A stretch of DNA of 64,000 nt from IMG/VR virus record IMGVR_UViG_3300015050_001523, positions 96,001 to 160,000 of that record. One strand, 5' to 3'. The notes beneath the pieces are model-generated. The model did not search any database. It worked only from the letters and a program-made list of their open reading frames with translations, and was not told where the DNA came from. The position numbers and the translations under genes were made by a program. Origin of the DNA: a virus (Duplodnaviria > Caudoviricetes). Numbering within the stretch: position 1 is the stretch's first letter; every line of letters begins with the position of its first letter. Positions 28,391-43,043 of the stretch are shown piece by piece.

Positions 28391-28543
28391 ATACAAAGGA
28401 TACACTGGAAACGGGGTGATGCAAGCGATCTTTGGCGATTTATTTTATGCTGCGCCTTTGGCGCTTTGGCACGGTTTGTGCATGGATTAATTTATTAATT
28501 AATAACAATTGCCTATGCAAAAAAAGGGCCATCGGCCCTTTTA

Positions 28544-28909
28544 TCAATCCGTTTTTTCAATTTCTTTACGTATTTTTTCAATATCCAATATGGAAATTTC
28601 AGAACATCCAGCCCCACAATCAAGAAGCCTTATTTCAAGTTTGTCAATCAAACTTTGAAGAACATTCATTTCGATTCCAAGTGTAGAACATGCGTCCCAT
28701 GTAGTAAGTGTGGAACCCATGTAAACTGCCGATTTTGAAAGGTTCGCAATTCGAGATTTAATTTCTGACAATTTTCCAATAGATGAAAGACCACAAAAAG
28801 TAGCGAAGATTTTAATTTCACGACCAGTCTTTAGATTGTTTTCAATCAAGGCCAAAGAGTCTTGAAAGTTCGACTTCTCAATCATTTCCTTTAGTTCGCG
28901 TGCCTTCAT
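28544..28909 (-). CDS. Hypothetical protein, leaderless
   Basis: TTGCGC-N16-TATCAT-N6-ATG (MKARELKE). Confidence 0.7.
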   Translation of the reverse strand: MKARELKEMIEKSNFQDSLALIENNLKTGREIKIFATFCGLSSIGKLSEIKSRIANLSKSAVYMGSTLTTWDACSTLGIEMNVLQSLIDKLEIRLLDCGAGCSEISILDIEKIRKEIEKTD

Positions 28910-29021
28910 GCTTTTATGATACCATATAACAAATGAAGCGCAACCCATTTAATGGAAATAAAAAAGGGCGCATAATGCGCCCTTTCATTTTTTTATTCTA
29001 TTTTTTGGCGCTTTGGCGCCT

Positions 29022-30098
29022 TTAGCGCTTCTCTACCATTTGAAGCATGCGAGCATGATGCTTCCAACGCTCACCAGGCAGTTGCATGCGATAGTTGCAA
29101 AGATGGACAATGAGCCGCAAGGAAAGCTGGCGCCACTTATTCACGTTTTCGTGAACAAAGTCAAGAATTTCTTGCTGGATTTTGGGGTCAGTGACCCCAT
29201 TTTCCACCATAATCCCAGAATCCTGGCAAACCTGAACAACGCGCAGAAGCCGCCGTCGCTTTGAAAAGAGCCCGAGATTCATGTAACCAGAGCGCGACAG
29301 AAGCGCCTTGACATGCTCGGCCTTTTTGGAGCCAGATTCGCATTCTCGCTGAAAATCGATATTTGTCAGGAACAAAATTCGACCCTGGAAATCAATAGAA
29401 TTTGGGATATCCTCCTTTTGAAGAGTACCAGATTCCTTGAGCCAGCAAATCTTGCGCGCCCTTCCCGGCGGCAAAACTTCAAGCGCTGCCTTCAAGAGAT
29501 TAAGAGTCGTTTCATCTTTGAAAACGCTATCGCAATCATCAAAGCAAAGCACGCCACCTTCAGATGCGCGATGAAGTGCCATGTAGAGATTGATGGGAGA
29601 AATATCCCCCTTAATCAATTCATAGTAAATTCCATCCTCGATTGCCTTTTCGGCATACTTGCCGATACAGTGACTTTTGCCGCAACCGGCAGGGCCGCTG
29701 ATCAGAGTGCTCGGGCGATTGCCCAAAACAACCTGCTCGACACACTCCTCAAAGGTTTCAAATCGACCGGCAATTTCGGTAATAATTTCATCATCCGAAA
29801 GAAGATCGTCAGGATCCTGATAGACAAATTCATTCGCCTCGCGGGGAGTAGCAGGAGCAGATCCAGATCGGGCGAAGCCTGGAGCGAAATCGCCCGAAGC
29901 AACCGCATCAGCCAAGGCGCGCATAGTTTGCGCAAGACGAGGGCTAATAGACTTGCTAGGATCATTGAGAGTCTGAGAGATCGTTGGCTGACTAACACTA
30001 TGTCCAAGCTTGTTAGCCTTGTCAGTCGCGGCCTTCTGCCATCCATGATTAGGATAGCCAAGCGCCTTACAGATCGTCATAAATTCGTCGTGATTCAT
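29022..30098 (-). CDS. AAA+ ATPase with N-terminal HTH-like domain
   Basis: Walker A GPAGCGKS, Walker B LCFDDCD, LFLTN sensor, ALLSR Arg finger; N-terminal VSQPTISQTLN helix. Confidence 0.85.
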   Translation of the reverse strand: MNHDEFMTICKALGYPNHGWQKAATDKANKLGHSVSQPTISQTLNDPSKSISPRLAQTMRALADAVASGDFAPGFARSGSAPATPREANEFVYQDPDDLLSDDEIITEIAGRFETFEECVEQVVLGNRPSTLISGPAGCGKSHCIGKYAEKAIEDGIYYELIKGDISPINLYMALHRASEGGVLCFDDCDSVFKDETTLNLLKAALEVLPPGRARKICWLKESGTLQKEDIPNSIDFQGRILFLTNIDFQRECESGSKKAEHVKALLSRSGYMNLGLFSKRRRLLRVVQVCQDSGIMVENGVTDPKIQQEILDFVHENVNKWRQLSLRLIVHLCNYRMQLPGERWKHHARMLQMVEKR

Positions 30099-30468
30099 TT
30101 TGTCTCGTTTGTTCGGGTTCGGTAAGGTTCCTGTCTCCCCCTCATGATAGCTTGAAGCCGACTTGACGCAAGGAACCTTCGCAACAAATTTCTTTCACCC
30201 TTTGGCATCCTTTATGCATCAATCCAAAATTATTACTAAACAAAATAAATGGTATGCAGCATCCGTGCCAAGCCTTTGCTTGGCGGGACCACTATAAAGG
30301 ATCGGAAGCATCTTTGCCGAAAAGGAAATGATTTCAATGGCTTGCGAGATTTGTCTGAAAAAGAGACCGGCCGAGGTTGCACTTCGAAGGTTATCGTCCA
30401 TACTGTGAGGGTGGTCGGGAAAGAGCCCGCCACGCCCAACCAAACCAAAAAGAAAGAAGATACCAATC

Positions 30469-31092
30469 ATGACCACCGAAACCGTCACCGCTCCCGCTGC
30501 CACCGAAACCGCCACCGCTCCCGCGAAGCCCGCTGGCCGCCCGCGCAAGATCTCCGATAAGGCCCTGGCTCGTGCCGAGCAGCTCTATGACTCTGGCCAG
30601 ACCATCGCGCAGATCTGTAGTCAGCCCTGGTGCAATGTCGGCCCTGCCGCGCTTTACTACCACTTCGCTGGCCGTTCGCCCAAGGGCGATTCTGGCGTCG
30701 AAATGCGACCGCGCGGTCGCAAGGGTCCGAATCCCACGCAGCTCGCGCACCTACTTGCCGAGTTTGAAAAGGGCCGCACCCTGACCGAGATCCGGGAGGA
30801 TGCCGTGCTTTGCTCGCGCGTCAAGGTCAAGAACCCCGCTGAAGGTGAGCCGGCGAGTAAGAAGCATATGTTCTCACTGGCCACGCTCAGCAAGGCCGTG
30901 AAGGATGCGGGATTCACGCCGCGCCGCGGCCGACCGGCGAATCCGGTTGCGGTTGAGGAGGTTGCGGAGGTTGCGGAGGTTGCGGCCGAGCCCGCTGCCG
31001 ACGCTCCGATGGCTGCTGAGCCGGTTGCGGAGGTTGCGGCCGAGCCCATGGCCGAGGCTCCGATGGTCGACGAGGCGAGCGCCGCGGAGTAA
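30469..31092 (+). CDS. DNA-binding protein: AT-hooks, two HTH-like segments, acidic Ala/Glu tail
   Basis: GRPRK, RPRGRKG and RRGRP motifs; GQTIAQIC..GPAALYYHF; GRTLTEIRE..LATLSKAV; EVAEVAEVAAEP repeats. Confidence 0.75.
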   Translation: MTTETVTAPAATETATAPAKPAGRPRKISDKALARAEQLYDSGQTIAQICSQPWCNVGPAALYYHFAGRSPKGDSGVEMRPRGRKGPNPTQLAHLLAEFEKGRTLTEIREDAVLCSRVKVKNPAEGEPASKKHMFSLATLSKAVKDAGFTPRRGRPANPVAVEEVAEVAEVAAEPAADAPMAAEPVAEVAAEPMAEAPMVDEASAAE

Positions 31093-31099
31093 TCCATGA

Positions 31100-31127
31100 A
31101 TGGTGGGAGGGTTTCCCCTCCCACCAT
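31100..31127 (+). terminator. Rho-independent terminator-like hairpin
   Basis: ATGGTGGGAGGG-TTT-CCCCTCCCACCAT after the AT-hook gene. Confidence 0.7.
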
Positions 31128-31147
31128 ATTATTTTAATCTTAATTTA

Positions 31148-31304
31148 AGGTGCGCCAATCGCGCACCTTTTTTTATGGACATCAAAAATTAATTAATTAA
31201 TAACAAGCCTTATGCATGAAAGATGCCAAAGCGCCAAAGGCGCGGCATAAATTAAATCGACCGAAGATGCTTGCATCCTGATTTAGATAAGCTATCTTTA
31301 GGTC
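31148..31304 (+). promoter_or_regulatory. Cassette element driving the tRNA-like RNA pair
   Basis: Full element; TTGCAT-N16-TATCTT places +1 at about 31305. Confidence 0.8.
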
Positions 31305-31419
31305 TGAGGATAGGCGAGATAAAGGAAAGACCAAGGGGCTCTGCCAAGAACCAAGGTCACTATTTCCAGGAACACGCAAGCTGGCAGGCTTTCTCCCGGG
31401 TTCGAATCCTGGATCCTCA
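31305..31419 (+). ncRNA. tRNA-like RNA (acceptor plus T arm, ~80-nt non-canonical interior)
   Basis: TGAGGAT/ATCCTCA stem stacked on CCGGG-TTCGAAT-CCTGG; internal CTGCCA/TGGCAG and GAAAG/CTTTC helices. Confidence 0.65.
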
Positions 31420-31426
31420 TTTTTGA

Positions 31427-31547
31427 CGGTATGAGACGAATAGGAGCACGTCTGCACCAAGCCACCCCGGTGCAAGAGATCTAAAGATCTATGCGAAAGC
31501 TAAGGATTTATTTAGATTTATAGTTGGTTCGAATCCAGCCATATCGA
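31427..31547 (+). ncRNA. Elongated tRNA-like RNA (10-nt anticodon-position loop, long variable arm)
   Basis: CGGTATG/CATATCG acceptor, GACG/CGTC D stem, GCACC-AAGCCACCCC-GGTGC arm, long hairpin capped GCGAAAGC, GTTGG-TTCGAAT-CCAGC T arm. Confidence 0.75.
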
Positions 31548-31590
31548 AATTTTAATTGGACATCAAACCTTCTCATGCTAGGATTTTAAC

Positions 31591-31920
31591 ATGTTCAGGC
31601 AAATGAAAATTGTCGTTGAAGTTTCGCCCGAGCTTGCTGCTGGCATGAGCGAGTCTCAATTGGCGCGACTCGCGCGAGGGATTGATATCTCCTCATGTTA
31701 TCGAGGAATTAGGATTGATGGATTTCAAGATCCTCAAGTTTTTGATTCGCTTGGAAACGCTGTTATGTTCCTTCTAAACACGTCCGCGACCGAGCGAGCC
31801 CTGTCCCTTGCTTGTGGAGGAAAAGCGACTGCTACGGGCTTGTGGAGGCATGACCGAGCCGAATTCTTTAGGCTCGCGGCCGAGGCTCTTTACAATCATC
31901 GAAATCTTTTTTGGCCTTGA
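31591..31920 (+). CDS. Cassette ORF, leaderless
   Basis: TGGACA-N16-TAGGAT-N6-ATG. Confidence 0.6.
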   Translation: MFRQMKIVVEVSPELAAGMSESQLARLARGIDISSCYRGIRIDGFQDPQVFDSLGNAVMFLLNTSATERALSLACGGKATATGLWRHDRAEFFRLAAEALYNHRNLFWP

Positions 31921-31950
31921 CTCCCTCGAAATATAGGCTATAACCAAATC

Positions 31951-32175
31951 ATGAGCACCACGACGATCAAGATCTCTTTCTCTACTGACGGCGCCGCCTT
32001 CGAGGATAACTTTGATGGGGAAATGGCTCTCGTTATCCGACAGATCGCTAACAAGATCCCACGGCTTCAAGCCCGGCGACCAGGGTGCGTATGTTCCTGG
32101 CCCGAGGGCGATGATACCCTATTTGACAGCAATGGCAACACGATCGGCAGCATCGCCTATAAGGAAGCCAAGTAA
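31951..32175 (+). CDS. Small conserved phage protein, leaderless
   Basis: TTGACT-N16-TATAAC-N6-ATG; I.F.TDGAAFED..LFDSNGNTIG pattern. Confidence 0.7.
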   Translation: MSTTTIKISFSTDGAAFEDNFDGEMALVIRQIANKIPRLQARRPGCVCSWPEGDDTLFDSNGNTIGSIAYKEAK

Positions 32176-32531
32176 TGAAAGTTCGCAAACCTAAAACCGA
32201 AGCTGAAGATATGGCAATGTCTGCGCGGGCTCTGGATTTTCTTATTGAAAAAGAAAACAATTGGATTCCTATCGACGCTCCCAAGACACGAATGGATAAA
32301 GTCCATTGTCAGCATATCCATATTGACAATGGCGGAATCTCAATGTCGGTTGAGGATACTGGGAAGAGCATCAATTTTGAAATATCTGCCCAATATTTTG
32401 GATATCCGGCAATTTCGGCTTCTATGAACATTCAGGACCACGCAATCGAATTTGTTTCTGCGCTGAGGAAGCTAGCAGATTCCGTTGAAAAAGACATCGA
32501 AAATATCAATTGGCAGGAACGATACGAATAA
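32175..32531 (+). CDS. Hypothetical protein
   Basis: Stop/start overlap with the previous ORF. Confidence 0.65.
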   Translation: MKVRKPKTEAEDMAMSARALDFLIEKENNWIPIDAPKTRMDKVHCQHIHIDNGGISMSVEDTGKSINFEISAQYFGYPAISASMNIQDHAIEFVSALRKLADSVEKDIENINWQERYE

Positions 32532-32641
32532 AGAAAAGGATGCCATTTGGCATCCTTTTTGCATGGCCAATTTTTATTAATTAATAATTTAACGATATGC
32601 AAAAAAGATGCCAAGCTTGGCATCTTTCAATGTTACCAGAG

Positions 32642-32770
32642 TCAGTCTCGCCTGGATGGCACGGCCGGCCATTGGCAGGCACACTTGGCAGTTCCACAGC
32701 TCGAAGGGATCCAAATGTTCCCGCACCACGGACAGCGCGGGAAGGTCTTGGTCTTGGTCTTGGTTTCCAT
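32642..32770 (-). CDS. 42-aa Cys-rich micro-protein (not in the ORF track), leaderless
   Basis: METKTKTKTFPRCPWCGNIWIPSSCGTAKCACQWPAVPSRRD; TTGCGT-N16-TATGCT-N6-ATG. Confidence 0.65.
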   Translation of the reverse strand: METKTKTKTFPRCPWCGNIWIPSSCGTAKCACQWPAVPSRRD

Positions 32771-32907
32771 AAACTAAGCATAACGTATTCTGGCGAGAAC
32801 GCAACCCAGTTCAGTGATTTATTTTTGGCATTCTTTATGCATGCTTAAAATTTATTAATTAATTAAAAAAGAACATTAAAAGAAAAGGCGCATTATGCGC
32901 CTTTTGG

Positions 32908-33453
32908 TTATCGGGCCGTCATTTCTCCGAGCCAAAGCTTGGCATCCTTACTGTCTCGAAAGATAACAAAGCTGGCATCAATAACAAACCATCCAATATA
33001 ATTTAGATCTTTCATTCGTGGTTCTTCCTTATGGCGCAAGGCTGGCCGATCGTTATGTTGGTCTTCAACCAGCATGACTGCCATATCAAACTTTTCTTCG
33101 GGGCCAACAAACCAACCAAAGCTGCTATCTCCAACTTTGATTTCCTTAAAGGACAGAGCCTTGACAGCATGCAAAGCTCGCATTTCTCGCAAGGCGCTCG
33201 GCAAAGCTCCAAATTCAAACTCGGCCGAGCCCATATAATCGAAAGAGAAGTATTGGTCAACACCTTTACTTTGGCCTACAGAATGCTTCTTCGCACAAAT
33301 CCGCTGTACCAAATAAGTCGCCCGAGAAGGATAATTAATCTTCTCCCAATCAAGGCGCTGCTGACGCTGTGACTTTGTGGACTTTGTTTGCGAATCAGGT
33401 TGCGGCTTGGTCCAAGTGTTCGCAGAATTCATCAGTGACTTTAGGCTGGCCAT
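32908..33453 (-). CDS. Cassette ORF, leaderless
   Basis: TTGCAT-N16-TATCCT-N7-ATG; FSFDYMGSAEFEFGALP motif. Confidence 0.75.
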   Translation of the reverse strand: MASLKSLMNSANTWTKPQPDSQTKSTKSQRQQRLDWEKINYPSRATYLVQRICAKKHSVGQSKGVDQYFSFDYMGSAEFEFGALPSALREMRALHAVKALSFKEIKVGDSSFGWFVGPEEKFDMAVMLVEDQHNDRPALRHKEEPRMKDLNYIGWFVIDASFVIFRDSKDAKLWLGEMTAR

Positions 33454-33457
33454 GATT

Positions 33458-33548
33458 AAAAGGATAGCCTATCCGAATCAGGATGCAAGGCCAAAAATAA
33501 ATTTATTTTGATGTTGCGCGAGCGACCTTTATGGACCATCCTATAATC
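33458..33548. promoter_or_regulatory. Compact divergent promoter pair around palindrome AAAATAAATTTATTTT
   Basis: Palindrome at 33494-33509 with TTGC(A/G) -35 boxes pointing outward. Confidence 0.75.
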
Positions 33549-33953
33549 ATGGAAACCGAAGCCGCCGCTATCACTCTCAAGCCCGAGCCCACCAATAGCA
33601 AAGAAGAGCTTTTGCTGGCAAAGATTCCGATGCCTGACAGCGCCAATCAAAAGGAAGGCACGCGAAATGAATTGGAGATAAAGGTTCGGTATATCAAGGA
33701 TGGAATGGGAAGGCTCGGCGGCCGAGGCTTTTTCCTAACCATTCATGGATATGCGGTTGAAGGTCTATTTAAAACCTTTATGCTTTGTCAGGACCCTTCG
33801 GAGTATATCTTTGTCGAGCCCTGTCAGCGATTTGGCGCAAAGGCCATGAATCAGGCCGCTTCCCGCGCTTGCGGAGAAGAATTTCGCGCTAAGATCGAAA
33901 AAGAGGTTGTCAAGGCACAAAAGTATTATCTTGGAAAGACTTTTCCAATGTAA
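33549..33953 (+). CDS. Cassette ORF, leaderless
   Basis: TTGCGC-N17-CATCCT-N6-ATG. Confidence 0.7.
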   Translation: METEAAAITLKPEPTNSKEELLLAKIPMPDSANQKEGTRNELEIKVRYIKDGMGRLGGRGFFLTIHGYAVEGLFKTFMLCQDPSEYIFVEPCQRFGAKAMNQAASRACGEEFRAKIEKEVVKAQKYYLGKTFPM

Positions 33954-34111
33954 ATCAAAAGGCGCATAAAGCGCCTTTCTTTTTAAATGTTCTTTTTTAT
34001 TAATTAATAACAAGCCTTATGCATTAGCCATGCCAAGCGCCTTTGGCGCGGCATGAAATTAAAGATCGGTTTGAGGTTGCATCTTCGGAAAAATGCTTCA
34101 TGCTAAAAGAG

Positions 34112-34348
34112 ATGAAAGACAAGCCTCTTTATCCAGGAAATGTTTATGACAACCCGATTAAGGGGTATAACACCCTTTATGATGAGGTAAATATTGTGAT
34201 TAGGGAACTTGAGCGCCTTCGCAAGTTTGCTCATGATGATTCTCTCAAAAATGAACATGCACTTCACCGAGAAAATGCTTTAGGCCGAACTTGTGCCTAC
34301 GAAACTGCCAAATCATTGCTTAGTGATATCTTTGTTCGTCTTGAATGA
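34112..34348 (+). CDS. Cassette ORF, leaderless
   Basis: TTGCAT-N16-CATGCT-N7-ATG. Confidence 0.65.
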   Translation: MKDKPLYPGNVYDNPIKGYNTLYDEVNIVIRELERLRKFAHDDSLKNEHALHRENALGRTCAYETAKSLLSDIFVRLE

Positions 34349-34529
34349 AACGATCCACTAAAAAGGCGCATAAAGCGCCTTTCTTTTAAATGTTCTTTTT
34401 TATTAATTAATAAATTAAGCCCATGCAAAAAGGATGCCAATGCGCCAAAGGCGCGGCATGAAATTAAAATCGATTTGGCCTTGCATCTTAGCTGGAATGC
34501 ATTATCATCAGAAGAGGAGCTAAAGAAAA

Positions 34530-34781
34530 ATGTCACGCACTACTCGAACGGTTCCAGGACATATGATTGATCGCGGCAGTTTGACAATTACTCCTGCCAT
34601 GCAAGATTATTTGGTGAAGGTTCAGCGAGGCCAGGCTCGGGCTGTAAGCACCGTTGTTTGCGAGCATGGCTGGCCCGAGCATATTTCCGGTTCAGACCGC
34701 AAGCGAATCAAGCGCTTTGTGGCGAAGGTTCGCCGCCGTCAGGCTCGGCAAGATATCCGAGATTCTTTTATGCTTGGCTGA
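34530..34781 (+). CDS. Cassette ORF, basic
   Basis: Downstream of a full element; GAGGAG SD. Confidence 0.7.
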   Translation: MSRTTRTVPGHMIDRGSLTITPAMQDYLVKVQRGQARAVSTVVCEHGWPEHISGSDRKRIKRFVAKVRRRQARQDIRDSFMLG

Positions 34782-34792
34782 GTCACCGCTAT

Positions 34793-35107
34793 ATGAATAA
34801 TCTCTCCGACCAAACCGCTTGCATCCATCCCAATCTCGCATCGCTTATTGCTGAGGAATTTACCCAATTTGGCTTTGTGCGAGTTAACCTCACAAACGGC
34901 TACGTGATCGAAATCGAACTTTACGATAGCGGTAACACCGCCGTGGTGGTCCGCGCGCCCGTAACGGAGCGATCCCCCTATGGAGGTTGCGATCTTATTT
35001 ACCAAACCAAGACTAAGCCCGCATCGGTTGCGATTGATGCGATGATGGCGCGGATCGTTGAATGGATGCGTCCGAAGACCGAGCCTGCTGACCTTGCACC
35101 ATTCTGA
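34793..35107 (+). CDS. Cassette ORF
   Basis: Second gene of the cassette. Confidence 0.6.
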   Translation: MNNLSDQTACIHPNLASLIAEEFTQFGFVRVNLTNGYVIEIELYDSGNTAVVVRAPVTERSPYGGCDLIYQTKTKPASVAIDAMMARIVEWMRPKTEPADLAPF

Positions 35108-35220
35108 GAATCGAGGATGCCAGATTAAATCTGGCATCCTTTTTGCATTCTGGTTTAATTATTAATTAATAACTTTCTTTAAAATAAAAAGAGCGCAATA
35201 AATGCTGCGCTCTTTTTCCA

Positions 35221-35490
35221 TTAATAAAGTGTAAAGTTTTGGGCTGGACTTGGGCTTAGTCCGTTTAAAACGCATGCTCCAATTGCAGCAACCAAAGTAG
35301 AGGCATTATTCGTATTAAATTCGTATCCAACATATCGCTTTCCTTTGTGCATCCTGGTTTTATCCGAGCCTCCCCAAATGCAAAGTTTGTTCAAGTCTGT
35401 GCGAAGCTCGGGAGCCGAATCTTCACAAACAAAGATCCGATGTCCATAATAGGTTCCGCCAAGAACGACCACAAACTTTGGATTCTCCAT
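35221..35490 (-). CDS. Cassette ORF, leaderless
   Basis: TTGCTT-N16-TAGACT-N6-ATG. Confidence 0.65.
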   Translation of the reverse strand: MENPKFVVVLGGTYYGHRIFVCEDSAPELRTDLNKLCIWGGSDKTRMHKGKRYVGYEFNTNNASTLVAAIGACVLNGLSPSPAQNFTLY

Positions 35491-35568
35491 ATATAGAGTC
35501 TAATTCATGCTGAGCCAAAAGCAAGAAAGAAATCCTAAAAAAAAAGGCGCCTAAAGCGCCTTTCCTCG

Positions 35569-35766
35569 TTATTGAAGGTTAGCTAGAAATTTAGAGATCC
35601 TTTCACGAACCCATGGGTTTTCTGGGTCGTGCTCAATCGAGCCGCTTGCGGAGCTTTGGAAGGTGCTCGTGATTGCAAGAGGCGAGCCATAATGGCCCGT
35701 GCATCCGCGAAACATGCGAGCATCAATAACATCTGCCATGGTCATTTGAATAGAATTATTATTCAT
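35569..35766 (-). CDS. Cassette ORF
   Basis: Ends at terminator hairpin GGCGCCTAAAGCGCC. Confidence 0.55.
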   Translation of the reverse strand: MNNNSIQMTMADVIDARMFRGCTGHYGSPLAITSTFQSSASGSIEHDPENPWVRERISKFLANLQ

Positions 35767-35772
35767 GATCTA

Positions 35773-36003
35773 TCATCCTTGCCAATTGCGCGGACGTGGA
35801 ACCGGCGGATCGTGCGGGTGTGGCTGGGCTTGAATAACAACCACTTCTGGCAAGAACCAGGACAAGTGTCCCGATGCCATGTTATAGCCAGCCAACCTTC
35901 CGCGCTCGTCGTAACGTGTTAGTCGCTTGTGTTTGGCACCGCTCCAAAACATATCTCCGTCTACAAGCTCGGACAGTGGAACTTTGATTGGGTCAGTCAC
36001 CAT
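35773..36003 (-). CDS. Cassette ORF
   Basis: Downstream of a minus-oriented element. Confidence 0.6.
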   Translation of the reverse strand: MVTDPIKVPLSELVDGDMFWSGAKHKRLTRYDERGRLAGYNMASGHLSWFLPEVVVIQAQPHPHDPPVPRPRNWQG

Positions 36004-36137
36004 CTAATAATGCCAGAAGAAAGACAGGATGCAAGCAGACTTAATGATTTATTTTTTGCCGTGCCAAGGCACGGCTCATGCATGATGCTTGTTATTAATT
36101 AAGATTTTAATGCTAAATGCGCCAAAGGCGCTTCTTT

Positions 36138-36323
36138 TCAGTCGGACTTGCGCTTTGTGTCGGCCGCAATTTGAATCGCTCGTGCCGCAGCCGTAATTGC
36201 TGACAAGACGGCCGGCAACTGAGTAACTGCGAGAAAGCTCAGATCGCTGGCGAGCTTGCCGTATTTGCGAGCAGCATCCGCGATCTCCTTTTGAGTTTCG
36301 TTGTTGAGTATTGGATCAGCCAT
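36138..36323 (-). CDS. Cassette ORF, leaderless
   Basis: TTGCAT-N16-CATTAT-N6-ATG. Confidence 0.65.
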   Translation of the reverse strand: MADPILNNETQKEIADAARKYGKLASDLSFLAVTQLPAVLSAITAAARAIQIAADTKRKSD

Positions 36324-36484
36324 AAGCTAATAATGCCAGAAGAAAGACAAGATGCAAGTACCTTCTGTCTATATTTATTTATTCCGCGCCTTTGGCGCTT
36401 GGCATCCTTTATGCATGAAAGTTTTTATTAATTAATTAATAACGGAACCTTAAATGAAAAAGGCGCTTTATGCGCCTTTTCAAA

Positions 36485-36937
36485 TTATTCGCACTTATTA
36501 TTGGAATCGATTGACGTCCAACAGCCAGAGTGTGGACCGACTTCGCCGATTTCCTCGTCAAGCATCAAAGCATAAACGGGAAAAAAGATAGAACCTCCAC
36601 CATGACTGTTAAAGTAAGGGAACCTCGCATCAATCGCTGTGCAGAGCGGCATGGTAATTGCACGATACAGAATCTCGGAATCAGAAGGTGCAATTTCCTT
36701 TCCATCATAATCGATAATGGAGGCAACAACCATCTTTCCAAGAGAGTCAACAATCGACTTGTAAGAATTGTCGACAATTTCGACCTTGATTCCTTCGGCG
36801 CTCAATTCCGCATGGATCTTCAAAGCCTTTTCGAAGGTATGATATTCTCCCTCAAAAACTCGCCTTCCGCTTCCATTACCAGGAACGCTAGGAACGAAAG
36901 AGAGGACAGCAAACGGAGCATTGATTGGCTGGCTCAT
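36485..36937 (-). CDS. Cassette ORF, leaderless (true start MSQPIN)
   Basis: TTGCTC-N16-TATCTT-N7-ATG. Confidence 0.7.
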   Translation of the reverse strand: MSQPINAPFAVLSFVPSVPGNGSGRRVFEGEYHTFEKALKIHAELSAEGIKVEIVDNSYKSIVDSLGKMVVASIIDYDGKEIAPSDSEILYRAITMPLCTAIDARFPYFNSHGGGSIFFPVYALMLDEEIGEVGPHSGCWTSIDSNNKCE

Positions 36938-37033
36938 CCCTAACAAGATAGCATCCTCCAATGAGCGAGCAACGATTAAAATAAATTTATTTTCGTTCTT
37001 GACTCTCTCGGATTCTCGGCCAGACTTATAATC
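36938..37033. promoter_or_regulatory. Compact divergent promoter pair around palindrome AAAATAAATTTATTTT
   Basis: Palindrome at 36978-36993; same design as 33494. Confidence 0.75.
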
Positions 37034-37321
37034 ATGACCCGCCAGATCGCCATCGCTGAAGCTGCTCGGCCTTTCTATGTTGTGGAGGTTGCGCCGACCT
37101 ACCATCCTGTTACAGATGGAATTACTGGTTACCGCGAATACCGCGAAAGCGAAGCAAGCTACGAAACCTTTGGTGGCGCTAGCTGGCGCGTTGGAATGCT
37201 GGATCGGCGATATGGCGGGGATGTCTGGTATGCGATTCGTGATGCGCTTGGGCGTAGTGTTTACTTCCCGCGAGTCGAGCCCGAGCAGGCACCTTGCGAG
37301 GATGGCGATATTCCGTTCTAA
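37034..37321 (+). CDS. Cassette ORF, leaderless
   Basis: TTGACT-N16-CAGACT-N7-ATG. Confidence 0.65.
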   Translation: MTRQIAIAEAARPFYVVEVAPTYHPVTDGITGYREYRESEASYETFGGASWRVGMLDRRYGGDVWYAIRDALGRSVYFPRVEPEQAPCEDGDIPF

Positions 37322-37357
37322 GCTTGCATCCCATCATTTTCGAGGTATAACTCTCTC

Positions 37358-37792
37358 ATGGAAACCGCCGAGTCTTTTATTTCCAAGTTGAATCTTTCTT
37401 TTACTGAAAGCTTCCCTAACGGATTCATTTCGACTCAGATTCACCGGTCACTTTGCAAGGCTGATGCCTTTAAAATTTATGTTGTTTTTACGATTCTTCC
37501 GCTTGGAGCGCAAACAAACGGAATCGTTGAAAACGATCCGAGCCTGAACAAATTTTTCATTTACATCGGCGAAAATCTTGAATCTTTGCCGGAATCGATC
37601 CAAACTGATCTATTCCAAGGAAATAGGCTTTACAGCCCAAAGGGACCGCAAGCGGGCAGCGAAAAGCTGGGCTGGCGCAATGGCAAGGCATCGGCCGAAA
37701 AGATCCTAAAAAAGTTTGATCTTTTCTTTAAGAAGGTTCGGGCGATGGTCGATGCCAATGGTGGAATTGAGGCTTATCAAAAGAGCGCATAA
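37358..37792 (+). CDS. Cassette ORF, leaderless
   Basis: TTGCAT-N16-TATAAC-N6-ATG. Confidence 0.7.
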   Translation: METAESFISKLNLSFTESFPNGFISTQIHRSLCKADAFKIYVVFTILPLGAQTNGIVENDPSLNKFFIYIGENLESLPESIQTDLFQGNRLYSPKGPQAGSEKLGWRNGKASAEKILKKFDLFFKKVRAMVDANGGIEAYQKSA

Positions 37793-37935
37793 CGCGCTCT
37801 TTTTCTTTTTAAGATCATGGCTTATTAATTAACAAGAAAAGCCATGCAGGAAGCATGCCAAGCGCCAAAGGCGCTGCATAAAATAAACCGTCAAAGTCCG
37901 CTTGCATCTTGGCTTCTATGAGGTATCATTACATC

Positions 37936-38199
37936 ATGCGAAATCGAAACTTTCTTCTTCCTTTGGTGCTTTGCTTTGGCTTTCTTATTGGCTGCACCGT
38001 GCCCAGCGATCGGGCTATGCACGTGCTAAAGGGAGCCGGTTATACTGAGGTCAACCTCGGTGATCATGCGTGGTATAGCTGCGGAAAGGATGATACCCTC
38101 GCAACTGAGTTTGTGGCCAAAGGTCCAAATGGCCAGCGTGTTCAGGGTGCGGTTTGTTGCGGTGTTTGGGGCAAGAGCTGCACCGTTCGGCTTGACTAG
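37936..38199 (+). CDS. Conserved phage lipoprotein, leaderless
   Basis: FLIGC lipobox; GYT..WYSCGKDD..F.AKGPNGQRVQGAVCCG; TATCAT-N6-ATG. Confidence 0.75.
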   Translation: MRNRNFLLPLVLCFGFLIGCTVPSDRAMHVLKGAGYTEVNLGDHAWYSCGKDDTLATEFVAKGPNGQRVQGAVCCGVWGKSCTVRLD

Positions 38200-38203
38200 A
38201 TTT

Positions 38204-38299
38204 ATGACGACCGCGATCGGTATGCCTCTAACAATTCTAGTATGCTTATTCTCTGGAATAGCCGTTTCGCTGCTCCTAAACAAGAAACGAAGGAGCTAA
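38204..38299 (+). CDS. 31-aa single-TM micro-protein
   Basis: MTTAIGMPLTILVCLFSGIAVSLLLNKKRRS. Confidence 0.5.
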   Translation: MTTAIGMPLTILVCLFSGIAVSLLLNKKRRS

Positions 38300-38459
38300 A
38301 CCTAAAGGCGCATTACGCGCCTTTTCTTCTTTGCCAAAAACATTTATTAATTAATAAAAATTCTTCATGCACAAGGCATGCCAAGGCGCCAAAGGCGCGG
38401 CATGAAATTAAAGATCGATTTGAGGTTGCATCTTGATTTGGATAGGTTATCCTTGGAGT

Positions 38460-38705
38460 ATGGGAAAGACGCAACGAAACCGGAAGCAGCAGTCCAAGGG
38501 CCAAGAAATGACCCGAGCCGCCGCCCGAGCATACATGGTTCGAAACCTCAAGGATTACACCGATCGAATCAGCGGCGATGTCAATCTGACCCGCCTCGCC
38601 GAGTCATGTTGTCAAGCTTTCAATTGTAACCATGATGGTGGTCCCCTCGATCAAGAGGATCATTGGATTTGGGATGTTACCGCGGATTTCTCAAATATCC
38701 GGTAA
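38460..38705 (+). CDS. Cassette ORF, leaderless
   Basis: TTGCAT-N16-TATCCT-N6-ATG. Confidence 0.7.
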   Translation: MGKTQRNRKQQSKGQEMTRAAARAYMVRNLKDYTDRISGDVNLTRLAESCCQAFNCNHDGGPLDQEDHWIWDVTADFSNIR

Positions 38706-38712
38706 AACCCAT

Positions 38713-38943
38713 ATGACCACAATCCTAATGTTTTTCGTGGGAATCGTTGTTGGCACAATGATTGGCTGGATTCTTGGCTGGAGCCTCATTGTTATTTGTA
38801 GCTATCCTTTGGAATGGCTCCGAAGGCGCAAGCGACTCAAGGAATTTGAGCGCGAGGAGCGCGAAAAAGAAAATGATTTGATCCTCAACTTGGATCCTCA
38901 ACTTCTAACCGAGCTAATTCAAGCATTCCGAAACCAAAAGTAA
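38713..38943 (+). CDS. Small membrane protein
   Basis: N-terminal TM segment then charged tail. Confidence 0.6.
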   Translation: MTTILMFFVGIVVGTMIGWILGWSLIVICSYPLEWLRRRKRLKEFEREEREKENDLILNLDPQLLTELIQAFRNQK

Positions 38944-39058
38944 AAAAATCAAACGAAAAAATGGCGAATTTTCGCCATTTTTTGCTTAAGGTATCAGGTT
39001 ATTAATTAATTAATCTTAAGAATGCAAAAAATGTTCCAAAGGATTTCCTTTGGAACAT

Positions 39059-39160
39059 TGCACCAAATAGGATTTGAACCTATATCCCTCCAGACAACGC
39101 TGGTAGCACTTAATTCTTGCAAAAATCAGTGCAGTGCTTTACCCATTAAGCTATTGGTGC
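39059..39160 (-). ncRNA. Atypical 102-nt tRNA (8-nt anticodon loop and 33-nt extra arm, or tRNA-Ile(GAT) with ~30-nt insertion)
   Basis: GCACCAA/TTGGTGC acceptor, GCTT-AATGGGTA-AAGC D arm and ATAGG-TTCAAAT-CCTAT T arm are all canonical. Confidence 0.75.
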
Positions 39161-39163
39161 GAT

Positions 39164-39298
39164 TTAAATTGCCCAGTCCCAAAAAGAACTTGACAAAAGA
39201 TAAAGCGCGAAAAGGCACATTCCAAAAACAGCGCAGGTTGCAACAACCATTGTCCAAGTAATAATGTCTGAAATGAGCATTTGGGTGGAGACCTTCAT
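39164..39298 (-). CDS. 44-aa membrane peptide, leaderless, co-transcribed with the atypical tRNA
   Basis: MKVSTQMLISDIITWTMVVATCAVFGMCLFALYLLSSSFWDWAI; TTGCGC-N16-CATCAT-N7-ATG. Confidence 0.6.
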   Translation of the reverse strand: MKVSTQMLISDIITWTMVVATCAVFGMCLFALYLLSSSFWDWAI

Positions 39299-39374
39299 AT
39301 GCTTAATGATGGCAGAAAAAATCAGAAGCGCAAGCCATTTTTTCGTTTGATTTTTTGGCAAAAATTTAAATAAA

Positions 39375-39399
39375 AAAGGGAGCCCGACCGGCTCCCTTT
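39375..39399 (-). terminator. Rho-independent terminator
   Basis: AAAGGGAGCC-GGTCG-GGCTCCCTTTTTT on the minus strand. Confidence 0.8.
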
Positions 39400-39900
39400 C
39401 TCGCATGTCTTTCCAGGCTGTCAAGCATGCCAAGATTTGATCAAAACTAGATTGTTCATGCTGAAACTTTCTAGCCTTTAGCTTGTCTTTCCAAGCTGTC
39501 AAGCATGCCAAGATTTGATCAAAACTAGATTGTTCATGCTGAAACTTTCTAGCCTTTAGCTTGTCTTTCCAAGCTGTCAAGCATACCAAGATTTGATCAA
39601 AACTAGATTGTTAATGCTGAAACTTTCTAGCCTTTAGCTTGTCTTTCCAAGCTGTCAAGCATATCTTTTTAAGATCCAGGTGCTATTATGCCGGATAGCC
39701 GCCTTTAAGACTGTTATTCCAAGTTAATCCCGACCAAGTGTGCAAAACAGCCAAAAAGTTTGGTCGAATGCTTGTCTTTCCAAGCTGTCAACCCTTAGAC
39801 TTGCGTCACAGGCTTTAAGAAGCTGTCCGCCGACTTTTCGGCGGAGCTAAGAGTTAGTTTTATCTGGACCATTCCAGTCGAGCCATTGGCTCTAATACAC
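39400..39900 (-). ncRNA. Candidate large structured RNA
   Basis: ORF-poor; serial hairpins (GAGCC-AAT-GGCTC, CTGGA-ATGG-TCCAG, CCGCCGA-AAAG-TCGGCGG, five GGAAAGAC hairpins); terminator at the 3' end. Confidence 0.55.
39406..39663. repeat. 78-bp tandem repeat, 3.3 copies, plus an extra core at 39770-39790
   Basis: Units start at 39406, 39484, 39562 and 39640; the minus-strand core GACAGCTTGGAAAGACAAGC forms hairpin GCTTG-GAAAGA-CAAGC. Confidence 0.95.
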
Positions 39901-40012
39901 TTTTTTTCAGAAATTTTTGTTAGGGGTTGAAAGCGACTTATCGCTTCGGAGGAGCCCGCGCAGTGTTATTAGATTTGTTCATTTTTGTCCTTTCAGACAG
40001 AAGATGGCTGAA

Positions 40013-40087
40013 TCAGACAGAAGAGAAGATGGCCGAAGGAACCGTAATCAAGAAAACAAAGGTAAAAACGATGAAAGCGGTCGTCAT
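40013..40087 (-). CDS. 24-aa hydrophobic micro-ORF
   Basis: MTTAFIVFTFVFLITVPSAIFSSV downstream of a minus promoter at about 40134-40161. Confidence 0.4.
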   Translation of the reverse strand: MTTAFIVFTFVFLITVPSAIFSSV

Positions 40088-40126
40088 TTTGGTTTCTTTC
40101 TGGCGGGAGAAGTTCTCCGCTGCCGA

Positions 40127-40315
40127 CCCTCAAAGTATGAGGCATTCTGCCGAGGATGCAAGCCGCCTTTGACGATTTAATTTGCGGCGACAAAGGCGCC
40201 TTGGCATGGTTCATGCATGGCTTAATTTATTAATTAAGAACATTGCGTCAAAGGCGCAAAAAATTTAAGATCGATTTGGGCTTGCATCTTACCTTGGCCA
40301 TGGTATCCTGAAGTC
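40127..40315. promoter_or_regulatory. Bidirectional cassette element (two promoters sharing one palindrome)
   Basis: TTGCAT-N16-CATACT (minus) and TTGCAT-N16-TATCCT (plus) either side of TTATTAATTAAG. Confidence 0.8.
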
Positions 40316-40711
40316 ATGGCACTAACCAAAGCTGTCGCTGGTCTTGCTCGCGTGATGGGTCTCCAATCCTCGCGCTTGGCGCTCCCAAACGAAAAGGGAG
40401 ACGCAGAAGTTGCGCGATGCAAGAAATGCGCGAGCTACATTCTGAGCGAGAATCGCCATGACTTTGTGACTTGTTTTTGTGGCGCAGTTTCGATTGATGG
40501 TGGCCGAGACTACACGCGAATTACTGGAAATGACGAGGATTATGAACTTTTGTCGGTTGTGTTCGGATACGATACGGAGGAACAACTAAAACAAAAAATC
40601 CTAATTCTTTCCGCGCGATTAATGCCAAAAATTAATACAGAATTATATGGGCTCTTGCTCGAATTGATGCAAGCCGAAATTGAGCTAGATCGGGTTCGCG
40701 CTAGGCACTAA
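40316..40711 (+). CDS. Zn-binding phage protein (CxxC..RHDFVTCxCG..DGG family), leaderless
   Basis: RCKKC..SENRHDFVTCFCGAVSIDGGRDYTR. Confidence 0.75.
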   Translation: MALTKAVAGLARVMGLQSSRLALPNEKGDAEVARCKKCASYILSENRHDFVTCFCGAVSIDGGRDYTRITGNDEDYELLSVVFGYDTEEQLKQKILILSARLMPKINTELYGLLLELMQAEIELDRVRARH

Positions 40712-40896
40712 ACAAACCAAACATTCCTTAAGAGCGCCTTGTGCGCCCTTTTCTTCTTGAGTTATTAATTAATAACAATTATCATGCATTAAGGATGCCA
40801 AGGCGCCTTTGGCGCGGCATAAAATAAATCGACCGAAGGCTTGCATCTTCTCTAGACTCTGATAAGATAAACCTGACTCCAAAAAGGAACCCAACC

Positions 40897-41043
40897 ATGC
40901 AAAAGTTCATCATCGCCTCCATCATCGCTTTTTCTCTCTTTCTTTCTGGTTGCGATCTCGCCGAGCAGGGTTACACTTGCGACGACGCTGGTCAGCTTAT
41001 CGAGCCGACCGGAAAGCCGACCGGCCTGCCCTGTCCTTTCTGA
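40897..41043 (+). CDS. 48-aa lipoprotein (not in the ORF track)
   Basis: MQKFIIASIIAFSLFLSGCDLAEQGYTCDDAGQLIEPTGKPTGLPCPF; AAGGA SD; sole payload of its cassette. Confidence 0.75.
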   Translation: MQKFIIASIIAFSLFLSGCDLAEQGYTCDDAGQLIEPTGKPTGLPCPF

Positions 41044-41221
41044 GAGGAAAGACACAACTTTGGAAAAGGGCGCTTTATGCGCCCTTTGTTTTTTAAAGTT
41101 TTCGACTTATTAATTAATAAAACTTATTATGCATGAAGGATGCCAAGCGCCAAAGGCGCGGCATAAAATAAATCGTCAAAGATGGGTTGCGTCTTATGTA
41201 AATCCACACTAATATGAAGTC

Positions 41222-41536
41222 ATGTCCAGTCCATTTCTTGTCGATGTCAAGCGGTATCTCCTCCATTTGATTGCAACTGACATTGTTACTGGATTACCAT
41301 TTGGAGGTGGTTTTCCGAAATCGCTAATGATGCAACTGCTTCCGTGGTCAAACTTGCAAGCTGATTTCATTGAAGCAATGCGCGGCAAAACTTGCGGCGT
41401 GGGAGAGGCTACTGATACAGACCCCGATGGTGAATGTGTGTACTACATGGATAATGTCGTCGACTGGCTCCAAAGCGACGAAACCGAACAAGTCTCTCCC
41501 TATGTTAAAAGCCTCTCAAAACTCAAGGACATGTAA
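41222..41536 (+). CDS. Cassette ORF, leaderless
   Basis: TTGCGT-N17-TAATAT-N6-ATG. Confidence 0.7.
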   Translation: MSSPFLVDVKRYLLHLIATDIVTGLPFGGGFPKSLMMQLLPWSNLQADFIEAMRGKTCGVGEATDTDPDGECVYYMDNVVDWLQSDETEQVSPYVKSLSKLKDM

Positions 41537-41712
41537 AAAATCCAGCCGCATCTAAAGGGGCATAAAGCCCCTTTTTTCTTTAAGTTTCCTAAATTATTAA
41601 TTAATAAAAATCCTTCATGCATAGTCCATGCCAAAGCGCCAAAGGCGCTTCATAAAATAAATCGTCAATGCGGCTTGCATAACTCTTTGATTGGTTTATG
41701 CTTCGGATTGCA

Positions 41713-42057
41713 ATGCTTCTCACTTTCGAAGAAAAGCTCATCGGGATTTCTCTCATGCAAGCGGGATGCTCGGCTTCCTCGGCTTCCGTTCAAATGAATG
41801 CATATTCAGGAGGCCAGTACACACTGGAAAAGATGCGCGATCTTTTCAAGTCCTTGGAAGAGGCCAAGAAAACTCACAAGGCGATTGGCGGCGTATTGAT
41901 CGAACTTCAAAACCCAGAAGCCACGGTAGAAGATCGCGTGTTTTTTCTGTATTCCATGGACAATCGAAGCGTGCAAGTAACAAAAGCGTTTCTGAACACC
42001 TGCTTGCCAGAATGGGCGATCCAGCTCGAAAAGATCATGGATTCGTGGGATTTCTAA
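41713..42057 (+). CDS. Cassette ORF
   Basis: TTGCAT-N16-TATGCT-N10-ATG. Confidence 0.7.
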   Translation: MLLTFEEKLIGISLMQAGCSASSASVQMNAYSGGQYTLEKMRDLFKSLEEAKKTHKAIGGVLIELQNPEATVEDRVFFLYSMDNRSVQVTKAFLNTCLPEWAIQLEKIMDSWDF

Positions 42058-42234
42058 CAAGTCACACGTTCAAAAAGGGCGCACAAAGCGCCCTTTTTCT
42101 TTTTTAAGTTCCTGAGTTTATTAATTAATAAAGCTTATTATTCATGAATCGTGCCAAAGCGCCAAAGGCGCATGATAAAATAAATCGTCAAAGATGGCTT
42201 GCGCCCCTCGCCAATCCAAGCTAAGGTTAATCCG

Positions 42235-42678: not shown

Positions 42679-42851
42679 CAAATCAAACATTCCCAAGGGC
42701 GCATAAGGCGCCCTTTTTCTTTTTAGACTTCCAATTTATTAATTAATAAATTTGAATATGCATGAAGGATGCCAAGGCGCCAAAGGCGCGGCATAAATAA
42801 AAAATAAATCGTTGCTTGACTTCGGCCGAGACTCGATTAGAATGATCTTCG

Positions 42852-43043
42852 ATGGAAACCGTCCGCTTCACCTTCACCGCTACCGCCATCGGCTCGACTC
42901 ACGAGATCACGATTGTCGTTCCGATTGAAGATGATCCAGAGCTTGCTTACTCGGAACTTGCGGACAACGCGCAAGAGCAAGCTGAGCAGATCGCGCGCGA
43001 GCGACTCGGAGTCGAGGATGTCGAGGTTCTGCTGCGCAGCTAG
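42852..43043 (+). CDS. Small acidic cassette ORF
   Basis: TTGACT-N16-TAGAAT-N8-ATG. Confidence 0.7.
   Translation: METVRFTFTATAIGSTHEITIVVPIEDDPELAYSELADNAQEQAEQIARERLGVEDVEVLLRS

What the first reader, a model, noticed from the sequence alone, without database searches (positions are those of the whole stretch)
31305..31547. A cassette whose payload is a pair of oversized tRNA-like RNAs
Seen: the element's promoter places +1 at about 31305, exactly where a TGAGGAT/ATCCTCA acceptor stem begins. RNA 1 (115 nt) has a canonical T arm but an ~80-nt non-cloverleaf interior. RNA 2 (121 nt, 7 nt later) is a full cloverleaf with a 10-nt loop (AAGCCACCCC) at the anticodon position and an ~45-nt variable arm capped by a GAAA tetraloop. 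Neither looks able to decode normally. Inference: tRNA mimics acting as decoys for anticodon nucleases or other tRNA-targeting defences, or as synthetase, T-box or RelA modulators, expressed early from the array.
Basis: partly seen in the sequence, partly recalled or inferred. Interest (0 to 1): 0.8.

Follow-up and report, generated by a model that had tools for sequence, protein, structure and literature searches.

The report
Phage tRNA-shaped RNAs without anticodons
A 322-kb freshwater jumbo phage carries two tandem tRNA-shaped RNAs that cannot decode; the first is kept in shape by selection and is built like the 50-year-old, still unexplained 'species 1' RNA of phage T4.

Summary
RNA1 (31305-31419) and RNA2 (31427-31546) each have a 7-bp acceptor stem and a canonical T arm. 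ARAGORN and Rfam do not call either one a tRNA. RNA1 starts 6 nt after the -10 box of a repeated cassette promoter, where other cassettes place a start codon.

A diverged homologue (L165) and short contigs from other freshwater metagenomes show that RNA1's structure is under selection:
- a retained D stem with a long hairpin inserted in the D loop;
- a 3-bp stem with a 6-nt loop in place of the anticodon arm;
- six base pairs between that loop and the apical loop of the long hairpin;
- 120 of 128 pair cells standard, and six pairs changed on both sides.

So RNA1 is not a decaying pseudogene. It has no anticodon to offer, so an anticodon-nuclease decoy role is unlikely. T4 rnaC has the same design, but I found no sequence homology, and its function is unknown.

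RNA2 folds as a stable cloverleaf. It is absent from L165, and its G3:U70 pair is not conserved, so it is an accessory with no comparative support.

Function remains inferred. Earlier scan notes (TL3, TL4) cover this same stretch, not other DNA.

The parts
31189..31298 (+). Cassette head element. It runs TTAATTAATTAATAA, ATGCAT...ATGCCAA, the GCGCC-AAA-GGCGC hairpin and an A-rich tract, then the promoter-like TTGCAT (31271-31276)-N16-TATCTT (31293-31298).
   Evidence: The repeat families are. There are 12 regex copies, and ORFs start 0-28 nt after the -10 box (6-10 nt in 7 of 11). The hexamers are unchanged in the X2, X6 and X8 variants, while the spacer changes at 31284 and 31290. The same element lies upstream of the L165 homologue.
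31305..31420 (+). RNA1, a 115-nt tRNA-shaped RNA plus the discriminator U.
- Acceptor stem: 31305-11 with 31413-19.
- D stem: 31314-16 with 31375-77.
- Hairpin inserted in the D loop: 31323-31368, with apical loop CUGCCA at 31341-46.
- D-loop remnant GGAACA: 31369-74.
- Mini-hairpin in the anticodon-arm position: 31379-90, with loop UGGCAG at 31382-87.
- T arm: 31396-31412.
   Evidence: 120 of 128 pair cells are standard and 6 pairs change on both sides; slid controls give 30-57 of 128 and 0-1 pairs. Model R1 scores 131.7 bits on the window and 131 bits on L165.
31341..31387 (+). Proposed intramolecular loop-loop (kissing) pairing, CUGCCA (31341-46) with UGGCAG (31382-87).
   Evidence: All six pairs are Watson-Crick in the window, X6, X8 and L165. 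The pair U38:A82 becomes A:U in L165.
31420..31426 (+). The spacer UUUUUGA. In L165 the U tract after RNA1's acceptor stem is 8 U long.
   Evidence: flags the place as terminator-like.
31427..31547 (+). RNA2, a 120-nt cloverleaf plus the discriminator A.
- Acceptor stem: 31427-33 with 31540-46, including G3:U70.
- D arm: 31434-53.
- Stem with the 10-nt loop AAGCCACCCC: 31454-73.
- Variable arm with a GAAA tetraloop: 31477-31519.
- T arm: 31523-39.
   Evidence: (z = -3.67). RNA2 is absent from L165. U70 (31544) is C in the X2 variant.
31576..31920 (+). An extended -10-like box TGCTAGGAT (31576-84), 6 nt, then the ATG of a 109-aa ORF (31591-31920). This is probably a separate, leaderless-type unit. 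ORFs 31951-32175 and 32175-32531 follow, and a terminator lies at 32534-32559.
   Evidence: The box and the ORF are conserved in L165.

Best explanation
RNA1 is a functional tRNA-shaped RNA that cannot decode. It is transcribed from a cassette promoter whose +1 coincides with the first acceptor nucleotide.

It keeps the parts of a tRNA that form the acceptor/T-arm helix and the elbow: a 7-bp acceptor stem, a canonical T arm, a 3-bp D stem and a GG-containing D-loop remnant. The anticodon arm is replaced by a 3-bp stem with a 6-nt loop. That loop pairs with the apical loop of a roughly 45-nt hairpin inserted in the D loop.

This is the design of phage T4 species 1 RNA (rnaC).

Inferred steps:
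- The 3' end forms at the U tract, or by RNase P cleavage at the head of RNA2 followed by trimming and CCA addition. None of the phage's 37 tRNAs encodes CCA.
- The RNA acts through proteins that read the acceptor end and elbow rather than an anticodon. It either exploits them for stability or competes with tRNAs for them.

RNA2 is an accessory, lineage-specific tRNA-like cloverleaf, and its functionality is unproven.
For: Anatomy and chance level.

Homologues:
- L165, about 60% identical, has the same cassette element and the same downstream ORF.
- Logan contigs from X2, X6 and X8/X9 are 93-99% identical.

The L165 RNA folds this way unconstrained. The window RNA does so once the T stem is enforced, at an energy equal to its unconstrained minimum.

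Changes on both sides of a pair:
- acceptor 3:113, AU to GC;
- mini-hairpin 75:86, AU to GC, and 76:85, GC to AU;
- apical stem 36:43, UA to AU;
- kissing pair 38:82, UA to AU.

A64U, seen in three variants, destroys a competing fold that would consume the T arm. Single-base indels in X6 and X8 rule out a coding frame.

The promoter +1 is inferred from the other cassettes.

T4 rnaC has an acceptor-like stem, a T arm and a long first hairpin whose apical UUGACG is complementary to the invariant 6-nt loop CGUCAA of its second hairpin. Its stems covary across five phages spanning at least four genera.
Against: There is no expression or end-mapping data, and no RNA run holds the stretch.

Only two diverged lineages are available, and the structure was derived from the same sequences used to test it.

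In L165 the two outermost acceptor pairs are mismatches. In X8 one T-stem pair is G.A.

No homologue turned up in IMG/VR, JGI metagenome contigs, GTDB genomes or 1.17 Mb of related phages.

There is no detectable sequence or covariance-model homology to rnaC: 14.5 bits, on the T arm only. rnaC's own function is unknown (PMC3014915, PMC9697503).

The kissing pairing rests on one compensatory pair.
Confidence: 0.6

Rival explanations
1. Both elements are decaying tRNA pseudogenes, disrupted by insertions and with no function of their own.
For: Neither is called by ARAGORN or Rfam. RNA2 is missing from the homologous locus in L165, and its G3:U70 pair is G:C in the X2 variant. No comparative support exists for RNA2.
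Against: RNA1 keeps every helix across about 40% sequence divergence, with pairs changed on both sides, and it keeps exactly 116 nt. RNA2's fold is far more stable than shuffles, z = -3.67. No difference is listed for RNA2's 5' part in the X6 and X8 contigs, while RNA1 carries about 7% differences in X8. Neither element resembles any of the phage's own tRNAs beyond the T arm.
Confidence: 0.1
2. The elements act in cis. They would be a structured 5' module, terminator or insulator, or a processing signal, that sets the expression or stability of the downstream ORFs (31591-32531), rather than trans-acting RNAs.
For: RNA1 is linked to the 109-aa ORF in both diverged lineages. A U tract follows RNA1 in both. 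No hairpin terminator separates RNA2 from the ORFs.
Against: The ORF has its own conserved extended -10 box 6 nt before its ATG, like the other leaderless cassettes. More distant homologues of the ORF have no such RNA upstream. A tRNA core maintained by selection is more than a terminator needs.
Confidence: 0.15
3. This is the first reader's reading: decoys for anticodon nucleases (PrrC, RloC, PARIS-type), or modulators of T-box or RelA sensing.
For: Both are tRNA-shaped and lie in a jumbo phage rich in tRNAs. RNA2 has an exposed, enlarged loop.
Against: RNA1 offers no 7-nt anticodon loop; its 6-nt loop is complementary to another loop of the same RNA. From established knowledge, these enzymes and sensors read specific anticodon loops or codon-anticodon pairing. 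RNA2's loop has 10 nt. Nothing in the phage genome is complementary to more than 8 nt of that loop.
Confidence: 0.07
4. RNA2 is an alanine-accepting mimic in the manner of the tmRNA tRNA-like domain (G3:U70 with A73).
For: The acceptor stem has C1-G72, G2-C71 and G3.U70, with discriminator A73.
Against: U70 is C in the X2 variant. There is no tag reading frame and no pseudoknots, and ARAGORN's tmRNA search finds nothing. RNA2 is absent from L165.
Confidence: 0.08

Closest known systems
Phage T4 species 1 RNA (rnaC, 139 nt) with its tandem neighbour rnaD (119 nt)
   Same: Both are phage-encoded tRNA-sized-plus RNAs with an acceptor-like terminal stem and a canonical T arm (CCGGG-UUCGAAU-CCCGG in T4).

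Both have a long hairpin in the D region. Both have a second hairpin, with a 6-nt loop, in the anticodon-arm position. In both, that loop is perfectly complementary to the apical loop of the first hairpin (UUGACG/CGUCAA in T4, CUGCCA/UGGCAG here).

Both sit in a tandem pair 6-7 nt apart. Neither has an encoded CCA.
   Different: There is no sequence or covariance-model similarity beyond the T arm.

rnaC sits inside tRNA clusters, with tRNAs on both sides where annotated in EcS1 and VIPECLOM01. RNA1 sits directly at a promoter in a gene-cassette array.

RNA1 keeps a recognisable D stem and a GGAACA D-loop remnant.

RNA2 is a cloverleaf, whereas rnaD has no T arm.

The function of rnaC and rnaD is unknown (PMC3014915, PMC9697503).
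tmRNA tRNA-like domain
   Same: Both have an acceptor stem and T arm without an anticodon. RNA2 has G3:U70 and A73.
   Different: The RNAs here are 115-120 nt, with no tag frame and no pseudoknot series. ARAGORN finds no tmRNA. G3:U70 is not conserved.
Bacterial Y RNA-like YrlA
   Same: Both are non-decoding RNAs with a tRNA-like module.
   Different: In YrlA the 5' and 3' ends form the Ro-binding stem and the tRNA-like part is internal (from memory). Here the ends form the acceptor stem. There is no Rfam match.

Membership tests
Canonical tRNA (Rfam RF00005 / ARAGORN) | Cloverleaf recognised by the tRNA covariance model or by ARAGORN at default thresholds | tested here: not met
   There is no hit for 31305-31547 at the gathering score or at E <= 10. 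ARAGORN's default and intron modes find nothing. Only relaxed thresholds (-ps80) give forced, poor solutions with the same outer ends.
Canonical tRNA (Rfam RF00005 / ARAGORN) | 7-nt anticodon loop on a 5-bp stem | tested here: not met
   RNA1 has a 3-bp stem and a 6-nt loop. RNA2 has a 10-nt loop.
Canonical tRNA (Rfam RF00005 / ARAGORN) | 7-bp acceptor stem stacked on a 5-bp T stem with a GTTCRANNC loop | tested here: met
   One search shows this for both RNAs. In L165 the outer two acceptor pairs are mismatched.
T4 species 1 RNA (rnaC) class | Acceptor-like stem, T arm and two internal hairpins whose loops are complementary | tested here: met
   RNA1. rnaC. In rnaC both loops are invariant, so its pairing is consistent but unproven.
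T4 species 1 RNA (rnaC) class | Detectable sequence or profile homology to rnaC | tested here: not met
   MAFFT shows similarity only in the T arm. Model R1 hits T4 rnaC at 14.5 bits, E = 0.4, over the T arm only. A blastn search with the window stretch finds nothing in 50,697 phage records.
T4 species 1 RNA (rnaC) class | Accumulates as a small stable RNA matured by the tRNA-processing enzymes | not testable with these tools
   No RNA run holds the stretch.
tmRNA | G3:U70 alanine identity, a tag reading frame and pseudoknots | tested here: not met
   RNA2 has G3.U70 and A73, but U70 is C in X2. ARAGORN's tmRNA search is negative. Rfam gives no hit.
Intron-containing tRNA | A cloverleaf is restored when one insert in the anticodon loop is removed | tested here: not met
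   ARAGORN -i at default settings finds nothing. Relaxed solutions need weak D and anticodon stems. RNA1's insert lies in the D loop and its anticodon arm is truncated.

The most novel reading that the evidence does not exclude
RNA1 and T4 rnaC, and perhaps TL1 at 3151-3294, may represent one ancient and widespread design of phage tRNA mimic. In it the anticodon end is deliberately capped by an intramolecular loop-loop pairing, leaving only the acceptor end and elbow to be read. Such RNAs would compete with cellular tRNAs for host factors or defence toxins that act on the tRNA acceptor end regardless of anticodon. That would give the unexplained T4 species 1 RNA a testable function.
Probability: 0.2. 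Interest if true: 0.8.

Novelty: new member of a known kind. Interest (0 to 1): 0.55.

Why it matters
T4's species 1 and 2 RNAs have been known since the 1970s, and recent reviews still say their roles are unknown.

Here an unrelated sequence in a distant freshwater jumbo phage has the same unusual layout, with compensatory changes that define the fold. This points to selection for a tRNA body whose anticodon end is closed off.

The fold also gives concrete, mutable targets, the two 6-nt loops, for testing the function in T4, where the genetics exist.

It also shows that standard tRNA finders miss a class of tRNA-derived phage RNAs.

Tried and rejected
**Searches for further homologues (all empty)**
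- blastn against 50,697 phage records.
- Exact and gapped motif scans of IMG/VR, JGI metagenome contigs and GTDB genomes. Every hit was a chance match in coding DNA or an ordinary tRNA.
- BLAST of ten related phage records, covariance-model search of eight of them, and my own structural scan.
- A protein-guided scan of IMG/VR with the neighbouring ORF.

**Contigs I could not read**
- The contigs of P0001 and P0002 could not be fetched because the sample files are too large.

**Function of the neighbouring genes**
- Pfam and PHROGs give nothing for the three downstream ORFs.
- The AlphaFold model of the 109-aa ORF is confident (pLDDT 92.5) but has no PDB fold match.

**Trans targets**
- Nothing in the phage genome is complementary to more than 8 nt of RNA2's 10-nt loop, and there is no meaningful RNA1-RNA2 complementarity.

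**Other readings**
- A protein-coding reading is rejected because of the 1-nt indels among variants.
- A two-piece tmRNA and YrlA were considered and rejected on architecture.
- The T4 rnaC loop pairing could not be tested by covariation, because both loops are invariant in five phages from at least four genera.

Full report
**Context**

The window is bases 96001-160000 of a 322,518-bp IMG/VR virus record. PHROGs matches to portal protein, major head protein and baseplate wedge subunit (families 213, 138 and 219) mark a tailed phage with a contractile tail; I read them as T4-type. The phage has hundreds of uncultivated relatives.

ARAGORN finds 37 ordinary tRNAs in the genome, and none has an encoded CCA.

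Bases 29-46 kb of the window form a GC-richer island, 44-57% against about 32% elsewhere. The island is built of small genes separated by a repeated composite element: a terminator hairpin, TTATTAATTAATAA, ATGCAT..ATGCCAA, a GCGCC-AAA-GGCGC hairpin, an A-rich tract, then TTGCAT-N16-TANNNT.

**The observation**

I scanned independently for a 5-bp stem around TTCRANN, directly followed by a strand that pairs over 7 bp with a segment 45-260 nt upstream. The scan returns RNA1 (31305-31419) and RNA2 (31427-31546). The same scan over 1.17 Mb of eight related phage records gives only a few AT-rich chance hits and two probable missed tRNAs.

Two GGTTCGAATCC-type elements 7 nt apart are therefore not chance.

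Neither element is called by ARAGORN at default settings, with or without introns, or by Rfam's tRNA model even at E <= 10.

RNA1's unconstrained fold is unremarkable, z = -1.07.

**The promoter**

The simple sigma-70 scan does not flag TTGCAT-N16-TATCTT, because TTGCAT matches TTGACA in only 3 of 6 positions. The box recurs in 12 element copies, however. In the 11 other copies an ORF of 40 aa or more opens 0-28 nt after the -10 box, and in 7 of them the ATG lies 6-10 nt after it. That is where a transcript would start, so those mRNAs would be leaderless.

The copy at 31271-31298 is the only one without an ORF. The acceptor stem begins 6 nt after its -10 box. In variants from other metagenomes both hexamers are unchanged, while the spacer differs at two places.

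**Homologues**

Sequence searches of phage records, IMG/VR, JGI metagenomes and GTDB genomes found nothing real. Two routes did work.

- *Logan contigs.* Contigs of freshwater metagenome runs hold RNA1 at 93-99% identity: X2, X6 and X8, with X9 identical to X8.
- *The downstream ORF.* The 109-aa ORF has close relatives. One of them lies on a 658-nt ENA scaffold, L165.

L165 carries the same cassette element and promoter boxes, then a 116-nt RNA1 homologue with 70 of 116 identical positions, eight U's, the same TGCTAGGAT box and the ORF. It has no RNA2.

**Structure of RNA1**

With only the T stem enforced, all four versions fold alike. For the window copy the energy equals that of the unconstrained minimum.

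With position 1 at 31305, the elements are:
- acceptor stem 1-7 with 109-115;
- D stem G10-C11-G12 with C71-G72-C73, followed by the conserved GGAACA (65-70), which reads like the 3' half of a D loop;
- a hairpin inserted in the D loop, with base pairs 19-21 with 62-64, a middle helix of unrelated sequence in the two lineages, and an apical stem 32-36 with 43-47;
- a 3-bp stem 75-77 with 84-86 carrying a 6-nt loop, in the anticodon-arm position;
- T arm 92-96 with 104-108.

The apical loop C37-A42 (CUGCCA) is complementary to the loop U78-G83 (UGGCAG) in all versions.

The pair table shows changes on both sides at:
- 3:113 (AU to GC);
- 75:86 (AU to GC);
- 76:85 (GC to AU);
- 36:43 (UA to AU);
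- 38:82 in the loop-loop pairing (UA to AU).

It shows one-sided repairs at:
- 19:64;
- 33:46 and 34:45, where tandem G.A becomes U-A in X8 and L165;
- the T-stem G.U, which becomes G-C or A-U.

Overall 120 of 128 cells are standard pairs and 6 pairs change on both sides. Partners slid by 1-3 columns give 30-57 of about 128 cells and 0-1 such pairs. Randomly placed helices reach five or more such pairs in 0.05% of trials.

There are caveats. The structure was derived from these same sequences, and only two diverged lineages exist. L165's two outermost acceptor pairs are mismatched, and X8 has G.A in the T stem.

A 7-nt alternative pairing (61-67 with 103-109) would consume the T arm. The A64U change seen in X6, X8 and L165 breaks it.

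Single-base indels among the variants exclude a reading frame.

The pseudogene alternative is therefore rejected for RNA1.

**RNA2**

RNA2 has C1-G72, G2-C71, G3.U70 and A73, a D arm with GG in its loop, a 5-6-bp stem with the 10-nt loop, a long variable arm and a canonical T arm.

It is present in the X6 and X8 relatives, and no difference is listed in its 5' part. It is absent from L165. In X2 its U70 is C.

It sits inside the U-rich tract that follows RNA1, between two ATTTT pentamers.

No covariation evidence exists. I treat RNA2 as a lineage-specific accessory tRNA-like RNA that could still be inert.

**Transcription unit**

No terminator hairpin follows RNA2, and the next one is at 32534-32559. 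The 109-aa ORF has its own conserved extended -10-like box 6 nt before its ATG, like the leaderless cassettes. The RNAs are therefore probably a unit of their own, with possible read-through.

More distant homologues of the ORF (43-47% identity) have no such RNA upstream. The ORF's confident AlphaFold model has no PDB match.

**Comparison with known RNAs**

The T4 record annotates rnaD (119 nt) and rnaC (139 nt, 'species 1 RNA') in tandem, 6 nt apart, next to tRNA-Arg.

rnaC has:
- an acceptor-like stem;
- the T arm CCGGG-UUCGAAU-CCCGG;
- a long first hairpin;
- a second hairpin with a 6-nt loop.

That loop, CGUCAA, is perfectly complementary to UUGACG at the tip of the first hairpin.

In five phages from at least four genera, the second hairpin's stem, the T stem and the acceptor stem covary, while both loop sequences are invariant. 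This is consistent with the pairing, but it is not a test of it.

rnaC occurs in about 750 phage records. In EcS1 and VIPECLOM01 it lies between annotated tRNAs.

RNA1 shares this design but no sequence. MAFFT aligns only the T arm, and model R1 hits rnaC only on the T arm at 14.5 bits.

Reviews state that the roles of RNAC and RNAD are unknown (PMC3014915, PMC9697503).

**Mechanism**

Shown:
- RNA1 has a tRNA-like core maintained by selection.
- It has no anticodon loop.

Inferred:
- It starts at the promoter's +1.
- Its 3' end forms at the U tract, or by RNase P cleavage at RNA2 followed by trimming and CCA addition.
- It acts through proteins that read the acceptor end and elbow.

From established knowledge, anticodon nucleases, T-box leaders and RelA all need an anticodon.

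**Verdict**

This is a real and interesting tRNA-mimic locus. RNA1 is a new member of the T4 species-1-like kind of phage RNA, and its function is still unknown. Earlier scan notes (TL3, TL4) describe this same stretch as read in an overlapping window, not other DNA.

Noticed in passing
window 3151-3294 (-): This is a 144-nt tRNA-like RNA abutting tRNA-Gly. It has an acceptor stem, a T arm, a D stem (10-13 with 94-97) with a roughly 70-nt hairpin inserted in the D loop, and a short hairpin with a 6-nt loop where the anticodon arm should be; z = -4.4. The apical-loop sequence GCGUUA is complementary to UAACGC at 98-103. The general design matches RNA1.
   Followed up: partly
window 39059-39160 (-): A 102-nt element inside the same cassette island scores 56 bits on Rfam's tRNA model, but only with a 33-nt insert at the anticodon loop. 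ARAGORN misses it.
   Followed up: partly
genome 215227-215306 (+), outside the window: An 80-nt element has a perfect 7-bp acceptor stem and the T arm GAAGG-TTCGAAT-CCTTC, but no convincing cloverleaf. It lies just upstream of a terminator.
   Followed up: no
window 28397-43214, cassette promoters: In 7 of 11 cassette copies the ATG of the ORF lies 6-10 nt after the -10-like box. Many cassette genes would therefore be leaderless mRNAs.
   Followed up: partly
window 31419-31423 and 31549-31553: The pentamer ATTTT flanks RNA2 on both sides, at the place where L165 has an uninterrupted U tract. This could be a target duplication or chance in AT-rich DNA.
   Followed up: no
G007:C1:25395-25745 (-) (related phage record, locus L146): ARAGORN calls a phage-encoded tmRNA (tag GADALQMAA*) in a 189-kb relative. 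It calls none in this genome.
   Followed up: no
L180:2540-2660 and 3130-3240: A Logan contig from a more distant relative has a similar TTATTAATTAATAA / ATGCA..ATGCCAAG head. It also has an odd tRNA-Glu(UUC)-like element with an enlarged T loop, just downstream of the homologue of the 109-aa ORF.
   Followed up: no
L184:20-159 (Enterobacter phage Q7622 rnaC): This rnaC homologue keeps both complementary loops but has a non-canonical T loop (GGGTGCATGCCCC). In that lineage the T loop is less constrained than the two loops.
   Followed up: no
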